Shown: positions 12,425-19,170 of the stretch, piece after piece
How the letters are laid out: each line of letters starts with the position of its first letter
Numbering within the stretch: position 1 is the first letter of the stretch
Notes under the pieces: generated by a model
Seen by the model: only the letters and a program-made list of their open reading frames with translations
Databases searched by the model: none
Told to the model about the DNA's origin: nothing
Source of the DNA: an uncultured Candidatus Binatia bacterium
Lineage (GTDB): Bacteria; Desulfobacterota; Binatia; UBA9968; JAJDTQ01
Direction: 5' to 3'
DNA length: 64,000 nt
Assembly (NCBI GenBank): GCA_964291295.2
Contig: OZ219754.1
Coordinates: 1,696,001-1,760,000, forward strand
Program-made: the position numbers and the translations under genes

Positions 12425-15400
12425 TCATTCCTCATCGTCAACGTCGATGACGTTCTTGAGGTCCTGGGCGTGTGTGTCGGTAAAATACAAAAACACCGGT
12501 TCACCGGCGAGCGTGATCGTCAGTTCGTTGCCGTCCAGCGCGTTGAACCCGTCTTTTATCTCGCTCCTGGAATCATTGGCATGCATGAACATCGCTGCGT
12601 GATTCGGGCATAATGCGAGGTAGTTCTGGTAGTGATGTTTCTTCAACTCCGGAAGAAACTCCACGGCCTCGAAGTAATAGTTTCCATTCCCGAGCCTGAA
12701 TGGAAGGCCGTCCCGACACGCCTGACAGAAGGTTATGCCGTTGACGTTAGTATAGAGCTCCCTCAGATAGGGATCGGTTTTTTCCTTCTTGGTCACGTCT
12801 CGGTTGCCTGAAATGGAACGCCGACTAATCTTGGTTGTCCGCTCCGGAGCACTACGTGCTTTCTTTCGGATATTCTCTGCTCTTCGATCTGGATTCCGGG
12901 GTTTGCTTGTGGGGAGTTCGCCGTTCTTCGTGTACTCCTCAAGCATCTTTCGGCGAACTTCCGGCGGAACGCGCTTCACAAACTTCAGCCCGTCTTCAAG
13001 TTCATCATCACTCTCAAAACCGAGTTCGGCGGCAACCTTTTGTTTCCGACGATATCGTTCCGCGAGCTCCTCTGTTTCCGCTCCAAAGCAGATGGCATCG
13101 AGCCAGGCCCAACCGGAATCGAACGGGAACCCGTCGGGCAGCAAGTCTCTGGACGCATCAACGGGGCGAACGAACCGACCATCCCCCTGGGGTACCCACG
13201 CCGCATTACGCAGTTGGTGTACGAGTTGTGAAGCGGCGGTATGTGGATCGTTGGACTGATTCTTTTGATAGGTTGCCTTCATCTTGTCGTTCGATGAGTC
13301 GCAGAGGGTTTTCCAGATGAGACAGGAAAGGTCAAGGTTCGGTTTCTTGAGCAATGTGGCCAGTTGGAGAATGACGAAATCGAGGTCGACGTTGGTGTCA
13401 TACCGGTGGATTCCCGGTGCGCTACTCAGGTACGCCCATTCAGGGTTATGATAACAATTGGATGGTGAAATTTCGAGTCGGTAGGCTACGCCGCACAATT
13501 TGGCAAATTCGATAAGCCGTGGTCTCATGTCGAAATCCATGTAGGCGTCGGTCAACGCGGATCGGTCGGACTCGGACCCAAGGGGAAAGTAGTAGGCCTG
13601 CAACATGGTTTCGAGATGGGGTGTGTCGAGATACACACCGCCTGGGCGGGACCAGCCACCACCGGATTTCTGGAAGATATAATAGTCCTTGAAGAGTTTT
13701 GTTTCCTGCCTGTTCTTTTCGACTAGCGCAATGAACCGCCTCAAGTCGGTTTCGTGGGTTTCCCAGGACGTCGAGTGGTTGGGGTTGGCGTATCGCCGTT
13801 TGAGAACAGTTTCGATCTGCTCAGACTCTCCGATTTCGCGGACGCCAATGTTCTCCAGAAAGGCTCGGGCACCACGCTGTACTTTTCTCCTGGCACCGTC
13901 GGTGTAGATATAGGTATCTTCTGCAACCCGGGGATGAATAGGGTCTGGCTGTGTCTCCTGAGTAGGGAAGTAGCACTCGGATCCTATTCTGAATTGACCA
14001 TCAGATAGCCTGACGATACAAATATCATCGAATCGTTCCAACTTGTTTTCGAATTCCCGATAAAAAAAGGCGTACAGCGAGCGGTGCCAGTCTACCGGTT
14101 TTCGGCGCATCCAATCAAGAAATATCGGGTCTGGGTCGTCTTTCCATGTTGCGTCCGACTGACACCATCGGCCGGCATTTGAGCAGCGGTCATCCAGGGT
14201 TTCCAGGAATTCCGTGGTGCCCCATCGTTTGATATCGAGATCATGATTCAAGATTCGGTCAACACGGTTGTTCCTTTGCGTAGCGGCAGCCGCCCAGTTG
14301 CGCCGATCCTTGTCATCGACAAGGAACCGGATGTCGCCGCGATTCAGGAGACGCTTCAACCCAGCTTCCGCTTGAAGAAGCTGGCAAGCCGGAGCATGGC
14401 CGTCGGTATTTGTTGGAGTCAGCGGTTGCTTGTTCATCGTGTCGACGATGGCCTCTCGTATGATCTGGTACGGTTTCGGGATGCCATCTTCGCTGTTCGG
14501 AAGCACGGCGAGGAAGTCCCGGTTGAGCAGACGGAGGTCGCGGATCTGGCAGAGGGATCGCGCCGCTAGTTCGGCGAGCTGCCGATACAGTGGCTCGTTG
14601 GCTGGCGTGTCCTTGATGCTGGAACGGCTGAGTTCCGGAACGAAGGGAGCATGGAGGTGAAAGTGGAGGTTCGAGGTTTCTTTCTCGGCCGTAAAATAAA
14701 CTGCGACGCGGCCCCTGTCGGCCGGCACAATTCGGAACTGCTCGGCGAAGCGCGGGGGTGCATCTGCCTTTTCCTTGTTCGACTGCGGCTCAAGTTCGAA
14801 GGCAATCGCAACGAATTGGCGATCCAGGTCTTTGACCGGTTCGGTGAAGCGGAGGAAGTGGGAGCTTGTGGTCGGCCTGCCAGCAGTTTCCCGAAGAATC
14901 TCCACGTGGTGATCTGAATGCGTATTTCGGAGCAGGCGGCCTTCCTCGCGACCGGTCATACTCCACTGGATCTCTTCGATGTTCGACAGGAACAATAGGG
15001 TATTGTCCGCAATATCCCGCAAACCGGCCTGAACTTCCAAGAACGCCTGGCTCGGCGGTTTCTTGCTGGAGTTGAACGGAAACTCGAACCGCGTGCGATC
15101 TACCAAGTCGGGGTTTGATGGTATCTCCCACGGAAGCACCATTTCTCGGATCTCGAAAGCATAGCTCGGCGACCAGACGCGTGGCGTTTCCGTATAGGCA
15201 AAAACAGCCTTGAAGCCGATTCCGAAACGACCGATTCGCTCTTCGTCGTCTGCCTTTGTTCCTTCCCCGATATCGGTGATGCTCTGAATATCGAATTCGT
15301 TGAATGTTCTTCCATTGTGTTCGAAGACAAGCACGTCATTGGAAAGAACAAAGGCAGCTTCGGTCGCGTCTGCGTCCTCAGCATTTTGAAGCAGTTCATA

Positions 15401-15517
15401 GATAAAATGCGCGCTATCGGGATAGAGATCCTCGGCAAACTTGCGAATTAAGGCGTATTTCTTGAGAACACGAGCAAGGTCTTCGTGATCCCGGCGAATC
15501 TGTTCAATGGCGTTCAT
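12425..15517 (-). CDS. sacsin/Nov-like GHKL ATPase with C-terminal HNH-like nuclease
   Basis: FIYELLQNAEDA, FEHNG, IGRFGIGFKAVF, FHLHAPF; C-terminal CQAC...EAVEFL...NYLALCPNHAAMF. Confidence 0.82.
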   Translation of the reverse strand: MNAIEQIRRDHEDLARVLKKYALIRKFAEDLYPDSAHFIYELLQNAEDADATEAAFVLSNDVLVFEHNGRTFNEFDIQSITDIGEGTKADDEERIGRFGIGFKAVFAYTETPRVWSPSYAFEIREMVLPWEIPSNPDLVDRTRFEFPFNSSKKPPSQAFLEVQAGLRDIADNTLLFLSNIEEIQWSMTGREEGRLLRNTHSDHHVEILRETAGRPTTSSHFLRFTEPVKDLDRQFVAIAFELEPQSNKEKADAPPRFAEQFRIVPADRGRVAVYFTAEKETSNLHFHLHAPFVPELSRSSIKDTPANEPLYRQLAELAARSLCQIRDLRLLNRDFLAVLPNSEDGIPKPYQIIREAIVDTMNKQPLTPTNTDGHAPACQLLQAEAGLKRLLNRGDIRFLVDDKDRRNWAAAATQRNNRVDRILNHDLDIKRWGTTEFLETLDDRCSNAGRWCQSDATWKDDPDPIFLDWMRRKPVDWHRSLYAFFYREFENKLERFDDICIVRLSDGQFRIGSECYFPTQETQPDPIHPRVAEDTYIYTDGARRKVQRGARAFLENIGVREIGESEQIETVLKRRYANPNHSTSWETHETDLRRFIALVEKNRQETKLFKDYYIFQKSGGGWSRPGGVYLDTPHLETMLQAYYFPLGSESDRSALTDAYMDFDMRPRLIEFAKLCGVAYRLEISPSNCYHNPEWAYLSSAPGIHRYDTNVDLDFVILQLATLLKKPNLDLSCLIWKTLCDSSNDKMKATYQKNQSNDPHTAASQLVHQLRNAAWVPQGDGRFVRPVDASRDLLPDGFPFDSGWAWLDAICFGAETEELAERYRRKQKVAAELGFESDDELEDGLKFVKRVPPEVRRKMLEEYTKNGELPTSKPRNPDRRAENIRKKARSAPERTTKISRRSISGNRDVTKKEKTDPYLRELYTNVNGITFCQACRDGLPFRLGNGNYYFEAVEFLPELKKHHYQNYLALCPNHAAMFMHANDSRSEIKDGFNALDGNELTITLAGEPVFLYFTDTHAQDLKNVIDVDDEE

Positions 15518-18500: not shown

Positions 18501-19170
18501 CGGTGACCGGCAGGACAGTGCCTGAATCGGATTGCAGTCCTACAAGATCTCCAACCTTGAACCGTGCCGTCGCGGCTTTCGGTGTGGTGGCGGTTATCTC
18601 GGGGCCGTCGGGTTTCACGGCCTGCTCGGCGGTATGGGTCGGGTCGCCTGAAGGATTCGGGTCGCCTGTGGATTTCGGAGCGGAGTCGGACGGAGTCGCG
18701 AGGTCGGTGAGGGCCTCTCTTTTGGCCGTTTCCACCACGGCGACAGATTCAGGCGATGCACCAAGCATGTCGAGAACCCGGGCCAAGGTGTCGGCATCGC
18801 GGTAGATGTCCTCCGCCGGAACCGGCGAGGCCGACAAGTGCGCCCACCGGTTGCGAACGGACTGCAATTCGCGAACCCAGCTGCGCCCCTCGCGCGGCCA
18901 GGCGAGCGCCGAGGAAAGCTCGTACCAATTCTGGTCGAGGATGCGCAGCAGCGCGGCAAGATCCAGTTGTTCCAGCTTGGTGAGTCCGCGTTCCTCCACG
19001 GCGCGCTGCTGCTGGAAGCTCAGGCGGTCCACGACCTTTTTTTGCCACCACTCCGCGCCAAGGGTGGGCAGATGTCTTGCAAGGGCGGATGCAAGCTCGA
19101 TCGTTGCGGTGTGAATCATATCATGCATGAAGGAGGGGGGTGGCTTCGCCGAATCGTGGTCCGGAATCAT
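15514..19170 (-). CDS. SNF2/RapA-like helicase with N-terminal Swt1-type HEPN domain
   Basis: [14 protein letters not shown]...RNRWAH (Rx4H); [46 protein letters not shown]. Confidence 0.9.
   Translation of the reverse strand: [1218 protein letters not shown]

What the first reader, a model, noticed from the sequence alone, without database searches (positions are those of the whole stretch)
12425..19170. HEPN-SNF2 helicase coupled to a sacsin-like ATPase-HNH nuclease: candidate unnamed defence system
Seen: a 1218 aa protein with an intact Rx4H HEPN motif (RNRWAH), a linker, a Tudor/SH3-like segment and full SNF2 motifs. It overlaps (ATGA) a 1030 aa GHKL/sacsin-like ATPase ending in a Zn/HNH-like module, and the second gene is visibly more AT-rich. 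Established: SNF2 helicases (DISARM DrmD, BREX variants), HEPN RNases and sacsin-like ATPases (Tiamat-like) each occur in antiphage systems. Inference: the pair combines two motors with an RNase and a DNase and has no adjacent methyltransferase. I do not recognise this pairing as a named system.
Basis: partly seen in the sequence, partly recalled or inferred. Interest (0 to 1): 0.78.

Follow-up and report, generated by a model that had tools for sequence, protein, structure and literature searches.

The report
HEPN-SNF2 helicase plus Tiamat-like ATPase cassette
Two overlapping genes, a DNA-motor helicase carrying an RNA-cutting HEPN domain and a sacsin/Tiamat-like ATPase ending in a disabled HNH zinc module, form a widely conserved, untested cassette that sits among anti-phage genes and most likely is a defence system.

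Summary
Gene A (15514-19170, minus; 1218 aa) is Swt1-type HEPN (RNRWAH intact), a disordered linker, a small SH3-like barrel and a DrmD-like SNF2 motor. It overlaps by ATGA gene B (12425-15517, minus; 1030 aa), a sacsin/Tiamat-like GHL ATPase with a C-terminal McrA-type HNH-like zinc module.

The pairing is not chance. Of 64 loci fetched with gene B relatives, 51 have a close gene A homologue directly upstream on the same strand, and 37 of those 51 have the same 4-nt overlap. Ten loci have a split form: SNF2, a separate AbiJ-type HEPN gene, type III Mod and Res, then the ATPase. Three could not be judged. Diverged pairs occur on rhizobial plasmids and one archaeal plasmid. Nearest neighbours match PADLOC defence models in 27 of 107 cases, against 1 of 31 control ORFs of the window.

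One correction: the HNH-like module keeps its zinc ligands but has lost both catalytic histidines, so "DNase" is unsupported.

The cassette is not DISARM, Hma or Tiamat proper. An October 2026 preprint lists "Type IV" Tiamat-like proteins next to helicase-nuclease fusions, probably this pair; it describes no phage test of them in the sections I read. I read it as a new variant of a known kind, function untested.

The parts
15514..19170 (-). Gene A: HEPN(Swt1-type) - linker - SH3-like barrel - DrmD-like SNF2 helicase, 1218 aa (possibly 1204 aa from M15 at 19128)
18697..19128 (-). HEPN domain, residues about 15-158 (all-helical)
   Evidence: Pfam HEPN_Swt1 E 4.3e-15 above its cut-off. AF2 gives helices 13-158 with pLDDT 95-98.
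18838..18855 (-). Rx4H motif, R106-N-R-W-A-H111
   Evidence: It is conserved in every HEPN-bearing homologue aligned, except that L008 has H at the R106 position.
18415..18561 (-). Small five-strand beta barrel (SH3/Tudor-like), residues about 204-252
   Evidence: AF2 strands 209-252 with pLDDT above 90. Fold matches are weak only. Invariant residues: F204, G207, E231, Y234, V236, F237, S248, Q249.
16561..18285 (-). SNF2 ATPase core, residues about 296-870, with motifs I, II, III and VI intact
15517..16560 (-). C-terminal DrmD-like region, residues about 871-1218
   Evidence: PADLOC DrmD model PDLC02623 aligns over residues 263-1186, E 1.9e-116.
15514..15517 (-). ATGA: the stop of gene A overlaps the start of gene B
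   Evidence: An NTGA overlap occurs at the same junction in 37 of 51 pair loci.
12425..15517 (-). Gene B: sacsin/Tiamat-like GHL ATPase with a C-terminal HNH-like Zn module, 1030 aa
14618..15517 (-). GHL (Bergerat-fold) ATPase domain, residues about 1-300. Invariant residues: E41, N45, D48, G84, G99, G101, K103.
12908..14617 (-). Middle region, residues about 301-870. Its N-terminal part is homologous to Tiamat (TmtA) profiles.
   Evidence: PADLOC TmtA models align as far as residues 589-788. AF2 pLDDT is 83-93 for residues 560-800.
12563..12745 (-). McrA-type HNH-like Zn module, residues about 925-985. C931, C934, C970 and H973 are the Zn ligands. The catalytic His positions hold E953 and A974.
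12428..12562 (-). Conserved C-terminal tail (two strands and a helix) with invariant H1016 and D1019
19167..19484 (-). HigA-like HTH ORF, 105 aa, directly upstream of gene A. Probably not a core component.
   Evidence: Pfam HTH_31 E 3.7e-5, below its cut-off. A homologue sits in the same place only in L006 and L019 among the 64 loci. No HigB partner is present in the window.

Best explanation
This is a two-gene, translationally coupled nucleic-acid surveillance cassette, most likely an anti-phage or anti-plasmid defence system. It belongs to the Tiamat-like GHL-ATPase plus helicase kind.

Proposed working (inferred, not shown):
- Gene B dimerises as an ATP-gated clamp, as other GHL proteins do. 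Its catalytically degenerate McrA-type HNH/Zn module and middle region hold or recognise DNA.
- Gene A is an active SNF2 translocase that tracks or remodels that DNA.
- When the pair meets invader DNA, HEPN domains of helicase subunits are brought together into a composite Rx4H RNase site. They then cut RNA and stop the infected cell or the invader's expression (abortive-infection-type output).
- In a minority of genomes the same chassis is wired to a type III Mod/Res pair, where it would act as a second layer on top of restriction.

Shown here: the domain identities, the intact ATPase and HEPN motifs, the loss of the HNH catalytic histidines, the conserved gene order and overlap, co-divergence of the two genes, and the defence-island context.

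Inferred: physical complex, DNA sensing, RNase output, phage protection.
For: 1. Conserved adjacency. Of 64 loci fetched with gene B relatives, 51 have a close gene A homologue (45-83% identity over the SNF2 part) immediately upstream on the same strand. Ten have the split, R-M-linked form and 3 cannot be judged. An NTGA overlap is present in 37 of the 51.

2. Breadth. The loci come from Alpha-, Beta- and Gammaproteobacteria, Planctomycetota, Acidobacteriota, Verrucomicrobiota, Bacillota, Actinomycetota and others, going by record titles. Diverged pairs (28-51% identity) lie on Rhizobium and Ensifer plasmids and on the archaeal plasmid pMETHO01.

3. Co-divergence. Pairwise distances of the two proteins correlate across 37 pairs: r = 0.757, with 0 of 2000 permutations reaching that value.

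4. Domain shuffling typical of defence genes:
- HEPN is fused to the helicase in 43 loci.
- In L021 the N-terminus carries DUF2283 and a weak, below-cut-off HTH_17 match instead.
- In L027 an unrecognised 175-aa domain takes its place, while the barrel onward is conserved (hhalign 1.3e-55).
- HEPN is absent in L052.
- It is a separate AbiJ-family HEPN gene with a conserved Rx6H in the 10 split loci.

5. Motifs under selection. HEPN Rx4H, SNF2 motifs I, II, III and VI, and the GHL N, G1 and G2 boxes are invariant or nearly so.

6. Context. Nearest large flanking ORFs hit PADLOC models at E of 1e-15 or lower in 27 of 107 cases. Hits include PDC-S68 in 7 loci, PDC-S01, PDC-S06, Avs3a, ZacA, AbiEii, short pAgo with TIR-APAZ, and type I, IIG and III R-M. 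The control was 1 of 31 ORFs of the window outside its low-GC patches; Fisher one-sided p = 0.004. In the window itself the convergent neighbour is a HEC-01-like ATPase plus DUF4276 pair.

7. Published support. B. cereus Tiamat, the nearest characterised relative of gene B, is reported to need its ATPase for defence and to be an ATPase and ssDNase. Tiamat-like genes are reported to neighbour helicases (preprint 10.64898/2026.09.30.754977; abstract, introduction passages and sections 21 and 23 read).
Against: - There is no experiment on this pair anywhere that I could find.
- The nuclease that would destroy DNA is missing: the HNH module lacks both catalytic histidines. DNA restriction by the pair alone is therefore doubtful, and the RNase output rests on a motif only.
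- The self/non-self principle is unknown, because most loci have no methyltransferase.
- No SNF2-sacsin ATPase fusion protein appeared: 0 of 120 listed long relatives carry an SNF2 Pfam domain.
- Only the 64 best of 564 confirmed relatives were examined, so the adjacency figure describes the closer part of the family.
- The flank survey used mechanical ORFs, some probably spurious, and a small control from a single genome.
- HEPN is dispensable in some loci (L021, L027, L052), so RNase output cannot be the universal mechanism.
Confidence: 0.68

Rival explanations
1. It is an accessory module of restriction-modification rather than a free-standing system. The SNF2 motor and GHL clamp assist or back up a type III (or other) R-M enzyme encoded nearby or elsewhere in the genome, and do nothing alone.
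For: Thirteen of 61 judgeable loci have type III R-M genes beside or inside the cluster. These are L016 and L017 (Mod-Res upstream), L058 (Res upstream), and the 10 split-form loci, where Mod and Res lie between the HEPN gene and the ATPase gene. The Anantharaman 2013 passages I read (PMC3710099) describe HEPN genes embedded in R-M operons as a second line of defence.
Against: Forty-eight of the 61 judgeable loci show no Mod/Res next to the pair, and neither does the window, among the ORFs scanned. The split form uses a different SNF2 subfamily (PADLOC PDLC02619, 23-25% identity to gene A). It may therefore be a separate system that shares only the ATPase.
Confidence: 0.15
2. It is a DNA-cutting restriction-like system in which the HNH-like module is an active nuclease despite its unusual residues.
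For: The module is homologous to the McrA HNH domain (E 1.1e-6). It keeps the Zn site, N965, the invariant E950 and the nearly invariant E953. The Tiamat preprint (section 21, read) notes that PacI cleaves DNA without the canonical residues. The archaeal relative keeps CPNCH, that is, the last histidine.
Against: The general-base histidine aligns with E953 and the metal-binding histidine with A974 across the family. No other nuclease domain was detected in either protein.
Confidence: 0.1
3. It is a housekeeping pair: a RapA-like, RNA-polymerase-associated SNF2 ATPase with an Hsp90-like chaperone, used in transcription or stress.
For: NCBIfam RapA matches gene A at E 4.2e-50, and some database records name relatives RapA or HepA. 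Gene B has an Hsp90/sacsin-type ATPase. An Hsp20 gene lies at 9202-9768.
Against: The RapA score of 170.9 bits is far below the 576-bit cut-off, and the DrmD models score higher. The distribution across phyla is patchy and includes plasmids. Gene B has low GC relative to the genome. HEPN and HNH-like modules and defence neighbours do not fit a housekeeping role.
Confidence: 0.04
4. It is a leftover of a DISARM class 1 system: an orphan drmD beside an unrelated gene.
For: The best PADLOC hit of gene A is DrmD, 1.9e-116 over residues 263-1186.
Against: NCBIfam DISARM_DrmD scores 325 bits against a cut-off of 610. No DrmA, DrmB, DrmC or methylase was found among the neighbours scanned. The partner gene is conserved and co-diverges with gene A, which an accidental neighbour would not do.
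Confidence: 0.03

Closest known systems
Tiamat-like 'Type IV-A' proteins and the 'IV-B' neighbourhood (bioRxiv 10.64898/2026.09.30.754977, Oct 2026; abstract, sections 21 and 23 and search passages read; figures not visible)
   Same: A sacsin/Hsp90-like ATPase with a Tiamat-type middle region. An HNH-like fold without catalytic residues replaces the PD-(D/E)xK nuclease. The neighbour is a helicase fused to a nuclease domain, with no methyltransferase.
   Different: The text I could read does not say that the IV-B helicase is SNF2 or that its nuclease is HEPN; HEPN appears only in the SACSIN context. In those passages it reports no synteny counts for this pair, no split R-M-linked form, and no experiment on Type IV. 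The equivalence is probable, not verified.
Tiamat (TmtA), the single-gene defence system (known to me from the preprint's introduction and from PADLOC models)
   Same: An N-terminal sacsin-type GHL ATPase and part of the middle region: PADLOC TmtA models at 7e-51 to 3e-29, covering residues 3 to about 790.
   Different: TmtA models are 1063-1782 positions long, and only their N-terminal 490-820 positions align. The C-terminal DUF3883 PD-(D/E)xK nuclease is absent and an HNH-like Zn module takes its place. This gene is paired with a helicase and is not stand-alone.
DISARM class 1 helicase DrmD
   Same: An SNF2 core plus C-terminal region homologous over about 920 residues.
   Different: Below the curated NCBIfam cut-off. 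Carries an extra N-terminal HEPN and beta barrel. No DrmA, DrmB, DrmC or DrmMI lies nearby.
Hma / 'type-1 BREX-related' systems (helicase, methylase, DUF499 ATPase; PMC12839542, passages read)
   Same: A helicase plus a large ATPase. A Swt1-family HEPN is fused to one of the motors and is proposed there as a last-resort suicide RNase.
   Different: In Hma the ATPase is a DUF499 AAA+/STAND protein, not a GHL ATPase. HEPN sits on the ATPase, not the helicase. The helicase carries a PD-(D/E)xK nuclease, and a methyltransferase is a core component. None of these is met here.
Animal sacsin
   Same: The sacsin-type ATPase fold: 5v44 is the best PDB fold match, E 1e-7. An HEPN domain is combined with a sacsin ATPase; animal sacsins carry PF05168 HEPN.
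   Different: In sacsin the HEPN domain is in the same polypeptide and belongs to another HEPN family. Sacsin has three ATPase repeats, a J domain and no helicase partner. The resemblance may be convergent.

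Membership tests
Tiamat (TmtA) sensu stricto | N-terminal sacsin/Hsp90-like GHL ATPase | tested here: met
   Pfam SACS 1e-19, NCBIfam P_loop_sacsin 94.8 bits (cut-off 50), invariant N/G1/G2 box residues, fold match to sacsin SR1.
Tiamat (TmtA) sensu stricto | Central DUF3684-type region | tested here: inconclusive
   PADLOC TmtA profiles align as far as residues 589-788, but no Pfam DUF3684 hit appeared at E up to 0.1.
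Tiamat (TmtA) sensu stricto | C-terminal DUF3883 PD-(D/E)xK nuclease | tested here: not met
   No such hit. The C-terminus is an HNH-like Zn module.
Tiamat (TmtA) sensu stricto | Stand-alone gene | tested here: not met
   Paired with an SNF2 gene in 51 of 61 judgeable loci; the other 10 also have an SNF2 gene in the cluster.
Tiamat-like Type IV (preprint classification) | HNH-like fold lacking catalytic residues in place of the nuclease | tested here: met
   The profile hits the McrA HNH domain at E 1.1e-6. The catalytic His positions hold E953 and A974; the Zn ligands are kept.
Tiamat-like Type IV (preprint classification) | IV-B neighbourhood: adjacent helicase fused to a nuclease, no methyltransferase | tested here: inconclusive
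   The pair fits the wording of section 23, but the figure that shows the IV-B genes could not be seen.
DISARM class 1 | DrmD equivalog | tested here: not met
   NCBIfam DISARM_DrmD 325.4 bits against a cut-off of 610. The PADLOC DrmD hit at 1.9e-116 shows homology only.
DISARM class 1 | DrmA, DrmB (DUF1998), DrmC (PLD) and DrmMI methylase in the same cluster | tested here: not met
   None found among the ORFs scanned between 5.5 and 25 kb.
Hma / type-1 BREX-related | DUF499 ATPase, N6 methyltransferase and SNF2-type helicase with DUF3883 nuclease | tested here: not met
   No DUF499, methyltransferase or DUF3883 in the pair or its neighbours. The HmaA model hit at 2.3e-39 is weaker than the DrmD hit.
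HEPN RNases (Swt1 family) | HEPN fold with an Rx4-6H motif | tested here: met
   Pfam hit above its cut-off. R106-x4-H111 is conserved. The model is an all-helical domain.
HEPN RNases (Swt1 family) | Dimer-dependent, metal-independent RNase activity | not testable with these tools
   Needs biochemistry.
HNH (His-Me finger) nucleases | General-base His after strand 1 and metal-binding His/Asn in the helix | tested here: not met
   The alignment to McrA places E953 and A974 at these positions. N965 and the CxxC...CxxH Zn site are kept.
SNF2 ATPases | Helicase motifs I, II, III and VI | tested here: met
   [10 protein letters not shown], ATP and RIDRxGQ are invariant in 28 sequences.
Type III R-M-linked variant of the same chassis | Mod and Res genes within or beside the cluster | tested here: not met
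   Absent from the window. Type III R-M genes are present in 13 of 61 related loci: Mod and Res in 12, Res in L058.

The most novel reading that the evidence does not exclude
The cassette is a free-standing, methylation-independent immune system. A GHL clamp with a nuclease-dead, McrA-derived DNA reader and an SNF2 motor jointly sense invader DNA, and they answer by switching on a helicase-borne HEPN RNase. That would be a DNA-sensing, RNA-cutting logic not yet shown for any SNF2 or Tiamat-type system. The recurring partnership of sacsin-type ATPases with HEPN domains and helicases would then reflect one ancient functional unit that animal sacsin inherited. The partnership appears as an operon here, as SF1-helicase fusions in other bacteria, and as an HEPN fusion in animal sacsin.
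Probability: 0.2. Interest if true: 0.8.

Novelty: new variant of a known kind. Interest (0 to 1): 0.6.

Why it matters
Tiamat-type GHL ATPases are among the least understood defence proteins. They have relatives in plants (NO VEIN) and humans (sacsin).

This cassette offers a compact, widespread two-gene form with clear mutational handles: the HEPN Rx4H, SNF2 Walker A and DEAH, the GHL N-box and the Zn cysteines. It also has natural variants in which HEPN is fused, swapped, split off or absent, and forms with or without type III R-M.

Those variants make two open questions directly testable. How does a GHL clamp cooperate with a helicase? Is the output RNA cleavage rather than DNA restriction?

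The cassette also exposes an annotation gap. PADLOC v2.0.0 models label the two genes DrmD and TmtA separately, and public records call them 'helicase-related' or 'hypothetical'. Current pipelines would therefore miss or mislabel the system.

Tried and rejected
- I submitted gene A residues 900-1218 and 15-262 with gene B residues 600-1030 as partner. The result was no verdict (score 0.00, mark 0.32), which is neither for nor against binding. The N-terminal 600 residues of gene B and the SNF2 core were not included.
- **Fusion search.** No SNF2-sacsin fusion appeared among the 120 long relatives listed. The bacterial long forms are SF1-helicase fusions.
- **Island borders.** No direct repeats mark an integration site between the tRNA-Val gene and 21.5 kb. 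No integrase turned up among the ORFs scanned.
- **Promoter and terminator scan, 11.9-19.9 kb.** Counts equal chance.
- **Rfam, 9.5-20.5 kb.** No family matched.
- **Small ORF upstream of the plasmid-borne pairs (176-206 aa).** No Pfam hit and no HEPN signal (hhalign probability 0.4%). My idea that it is a split-off HEPN is unsupported.
- **Fold search of the N-terminal model.** No match at E 0.001 or lower, so the barrel's family stays open.
- **Atlas search.** Unavailable for this sequence.
- **Hma.** I first recalled Hma as having a GHKL ATPase. The paper passages I read show it is DUF499, so that analogy was corrected.
- **Phage genomes.** One partial match to gene B (28% of its length) in 50,697 records, so the pair is not a typical phage gene.
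- **Not checked.** The reverse question, how many gene A relatives lack a gene B neighbour, could be addressed only by proxy. By my hand count, 32 of the 119 listed HEPN-SNF2 clusters share a longest-contig length with a listed gene B cluster.
- **Not seen.** The preprint's figures and supplements.

Full report
**1. What is in the sequence**

Two long ORFs lie head to tail on the minus strand:
- Gene A: 15514-19170, 1218 aa.
- Gene B: 12425-15517, 1030 aa.

The junction reads gtggcATGAacg, so stop and start overlap by four bases. Gene B is markedly more AT-rich: GC 0.537, against 0.635 for gene A and 0.654 for the window.

A 105-aa HigA-like HTH ORF (19167-19484) abuts the annotated start of gene A. 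Nineteen of 28 aligned homologues of gene A begin at the position equivalent to M15, so the true start may be 19128.

Downstream, and convergent with the pair, lie an AAA_15/AAA_21 ATPase (10170-11591; PADLOC HEC-01A, 1.5e-55) and a DUF4276 protein (11701-12174). No methyltransferase was found among the 16 ORFs scanned between 5.5 and 25 kb.

**2. Gene A**

Pfam finds HEPN_Swt1 at residues 36-135 (E 4.3e-15, above its cut-off), plus SNF2-rel_dom, ResIII and Helicase_C.

The Rx4H motif is R106-N-R-W-A-H111. N107, W109 and H111 are invariant and R106 is kept in at least 90% of the 28-29 aligned homologues. One homologue, L008, has H at the R106 position.

An AF2 model of residues 1-300 (pLDDT 81.5) shows three parts:
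- a helical domain at 13-158 with pLDDT 95-98;
- a low-confidence linker at 160-200;
- a five-strand beta barrel at 209-252 with pLDDT above 90.

PDB fold matches for this model are weak (E at least 0.016). They point to SH3-like, KOW, PWWP and Tudor barrels.

The SNF2 motifs [10 protein letters not shown], ATP and RIDRxGQ are invariant. The best defence-library match is DrmD (PADLOC PDLC02623, 1.9e-116, residues 263-1186). The curated NCBIfam DrmD model scores only 325 bits against a cut-off of 610.

**3. Gene B**

The N-terminus is a sacsin-type GHL ATPase:
- Pfam SACS, 1e-19; NCBIfam P_loop_sacsin, 94.8 bits against a cut-off of 50.
- The best PDB fold match of the whole-protein model (pLDDT 69.7) is human sacsin SR1, E 1e-7, followed by MutL and Hsp90.
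- The ATP-site residues are invariant among 26 homologues.

PADLOC Tiamat (TmtA) models match only the N-terminal part. Alignments end between residues 102 and 788, and the models are 1063-1782 positions long.

The C-terminal 100 residues form a zinc module. A profile of 26 C-termini hits the HNH domain of E. coli McrA (6ghc_A) at E 1.1e-6. In that alignment:
- C931, C934, C970 and H973 are the zinc ligands. H973 is Cys in two homologues.
- N965 corresponds to the HNH asparagine.
- The general-base histidine of McrA aligns with E953, and the metal-binding histidine with A974.

The module is therefore HNH-derived but lacks both catalytic histidines.

**4. Is the pairing real?**

A degenerate-pattern scan of one genome per species confirmed 564 relatives of gene B. 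The best 80 matches gave 64 loci. I then ran tblastn with parts of gene A:

| Class | Loci |
|---|---|
| Close SNF2 homologue directly upstream, same strand, HEPN detected | 43 |
| Same, no HEPN hit | 8 |
| Split, R-M-linked architecture | 10 |
| Cut off by the contig end | 3 |

The 8 loci without an HEPN hit divide as follows:
- Four are cut by the contig end.
- L021 carries DUF2283 and a weak, below-cut-off HTH_17 match in place of HEPN.
- L027 carries an unrecognised 175-aa domain, while the barrel onward is conserved (hhalign 1.3e-55).
- L052 lacks the N-terminus.
- L036 looks degraded.

In L028 the matched ATPase gene faces away from the helicase gene. A second sacsin-type gene follows that helicase on its own strand.

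Thirty-seven of the 51 pair loci show the same NTGA overlap. Pairwise distances of the two proteins correlate across 37 pairs (r = 0.757; 0 of 2000 permutations as high), and gene B evolves faster (mean p-distance 0.53 against 0.37). Gene B is more AT-rich than its partner in 36 of 36 loci, so the window's GC contrast is a family trait and not a sign of separate origin.

More distant pairs lie on plasmids:
- Rhizobium and Ensifer plasmids: 30% identity for gene B, 49-51% for gene A, with a small unknown ORF upstream and no HEPN.
- The archaeal plasmid pMETHO01, whose ATPase also ends in the HNH-like module (hhalign probability 95.7%).

**5. The split form**

Ten loci carry, in order:
- an HTH_17-SNF2 gene of another subfamily (PADLOC DrmD model PDLC02619, e-172 and e-190 in the two I scanned, L046 and L039);
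- a 280-aa AbiJ-family HEPN protein in the 8 loci where the ORF was clustered (Pfam Abi_C 8.6e-14 and PADLOC AbiJ 1e-17 for the one I scanned, L046);
- type III Mod;
- type III Res;
- the gene B homologue.

An Rx6H motif is conserved in 7 of the 7 AbiJ-type proteins I aligned.

L016 and L017 place Mod-Res directly upstream of the fused pair, and L058 has a type III Res upstream. HEPN, an SNF2 motor and this ATPase therefore recur together whether fused or split. Thirteen of 61 judgeable loci tie them to type III R-M genes.

**6. Context**

I took the nearest large non-overlapping ORF on each side of the cluster. Twenty-seven of the 107 ORFs scanned match PADLOC models at E of 1e-15 or lower. 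The hits include PDC-S68 (7 loci), PDC-S01, PDC-S06, Avs3a, ZacA, AbiEii, TIR-APAZ with short pAgo, type I, IIG and III R-M, DrmC and WYL.

As a control I scanned 31 ORFs of the window outside its two low-GC patches. One matched, a topoisomerase hitting DpdF. Fisher one-sided p = 0.004.

The ORFs were called mechanically, and the control comes from one genome.

**7. Literature**

Searches run:
- 'HEPN, sacsin, SNF2' found 3 papers.
- 'sacsin, antiphage, helicase' found 2.
- 'HEPN, SNF2, defense island' found 13, of which 10 were listed.

The only text that fits is the Tiamat preprint of 1 Oct 2026 (10.64898/2026.09.30.754977; abstract, sections 21 and 23 and search passages read). Its 'Type IV-A' has an HNH-like fold lacking catalytic residues. 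Its 'IV-B' neighbourhood has a helicase fused to a nuclease without a methyltransferase. I could not see its figures or supplements, so identity with this pair is likely but unverified. In what I read, its experiments are on B. cereus Tiamat, not on Type IV.

Other papers:
- Anantharaman et al. 2013 (PMC3710099; passages read) describe Swt1-family HEPN fused to the DUF499 ATPase in R-M-like operons. The passages I saw do not describe this pair.
- PMC12839542 (passages read) shows that Hma's ATPase is DUF499, so Hma is an analogue and not a relative.

Database names for relatives are generic: 'helicase-related', 'Swt1 family HEPN domain-containing', 'RapA', 'hypothetical'.

Family size:
- N-terminal module of gene A: 479 clusters at 90% identity; 369 representatives at 50% identity with E of 1e-30 or lower, many of them fragments.
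- Gene B: 3564 proteins with E of 0.001 or lower among those scored, which includes all sacsin-type ATPases of similar length.

**8. Mechanism**

Shown:
- two intact ATP motors, one of them a DNA translocase type;
- an intact HEPN catalytic motif;
- an HNH-derived zinc module without catalytic histidines;
- obligate-looking gene coupling;
- modular swapping of the N-terminal domain;
- defence neighbourhoods.

Inferred:
- Gene B works as an ATP-gated dimeric clamp that reads DNA through its McrA-derived module.
- Gene A translocates on that DNA.
- Engagement with invader DNA brings HEPN domains together to cut RNA, giving an abortive-infection-type outcome.
- Where Mod/Res genes are present, the module backs up restriction.

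I put about 0.68 on 'defence cassette whose two proteins work together', and roughly 0.3 on the specific DNA-sensing, RNA-cutting scheme.

Complex prediction gave no verdict. No SNF2-sacsin fusion protein was seen. That search did show about 50 bacterial sacsin-ATPase/SF1-helicase fusions, and animal sacsins with HEPN domains, so these three modules are combined repeatedly.

**9. Verdict**

The cassette is real, widespread and uncharacterised. It is not DISARM, Hma or Tiamat proper, and it is best filed as a helicase-coupled variant of the Tiamat-like kind. Its 'DNase' is probably a DNA-binding relic. Novelty: new variant of a known kind. Interest: 0.6.

Noticed in passing
window 10170-12174 (+): An AAA_15/AAA_21 ATPase (PADLOC HEC-01A, 1.5e-55) followed by a DUF4276 protein (HEC-01B, 2.8e-5). 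This candidate defence pair is convergent with gene B, so the 10-19.5 kb stretch is a small defence islet.
   Followed up: partly
window 43805-54512: A second low-GC patch (GC 0.52-0.59 at 46-50 kb). It holds a second AAA_15/21 ATPase (48201-49676) plus a weak, below-cut-off DUF4276 match (49520-50326). It also holds an HTH_3+Peptidase_M78 protein (46129-47208), a ThiF/E1-like 579-aa protein (43805-45544) and a 1334-aa topoisomerase with a long N-terminal extension that hits PADLOC DpdF at 1.1e-116.
   Followed up: partly
window 19167-19484 (-) and 19645-19709: A HigA-like HTH ORF without its HigB partner; the partner is present beside the homologue in L006. A 30-nt tandem repeat (2.2 copies, 85% matches) lies 160-225 nt upstream of it and may be an operator.
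   Followed up: partly
window 6604-7014 (+) and 7523-7599 (+): An EVE-domain ORF (1.7e-32) and a tRNA-Val(CAC) gene lie about 2.5 kb before the islet. No repeat of the tRNA end was found that would mark an integration site.
   Followed up: partly
L008, L010, L012, L014, L022, L031, L036: A roughly 1250-aa RecD-like protein (PADLOC candidate PDC-S68, E down to 0) lies directly beside the pair in 7 loci. That is more often than any other neighbour, so it may be a functional associate.
   Followed up: partly
L045:10988-14395 and L066:12000-15389: A roughly 1130-aa PD-(D/E)xK + RNase_H_2 + SF1 helicase protein ('TM0106 family RecB-like') follows the ATPase gene in one split-form locus and on the Ensifer plasmid.
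   Followed up: no
L065:5152-5682, L066:5133-5687, L067:5007-5627: In the plasmid-borne, HEPN-less versions a small ORF of 176-206 aa with no recognisable family precedes the helicase gene.
   Followed up: partly
all pair loci: The ATPase gene is more AT-rich than its helicase partner in 36 of 36 loci (mean 3.6 points) and more AT-rich than the flanks in 32 of 34. The cause is not known; it could be amino-acid composition or faster turnover.
   Followed up: partly
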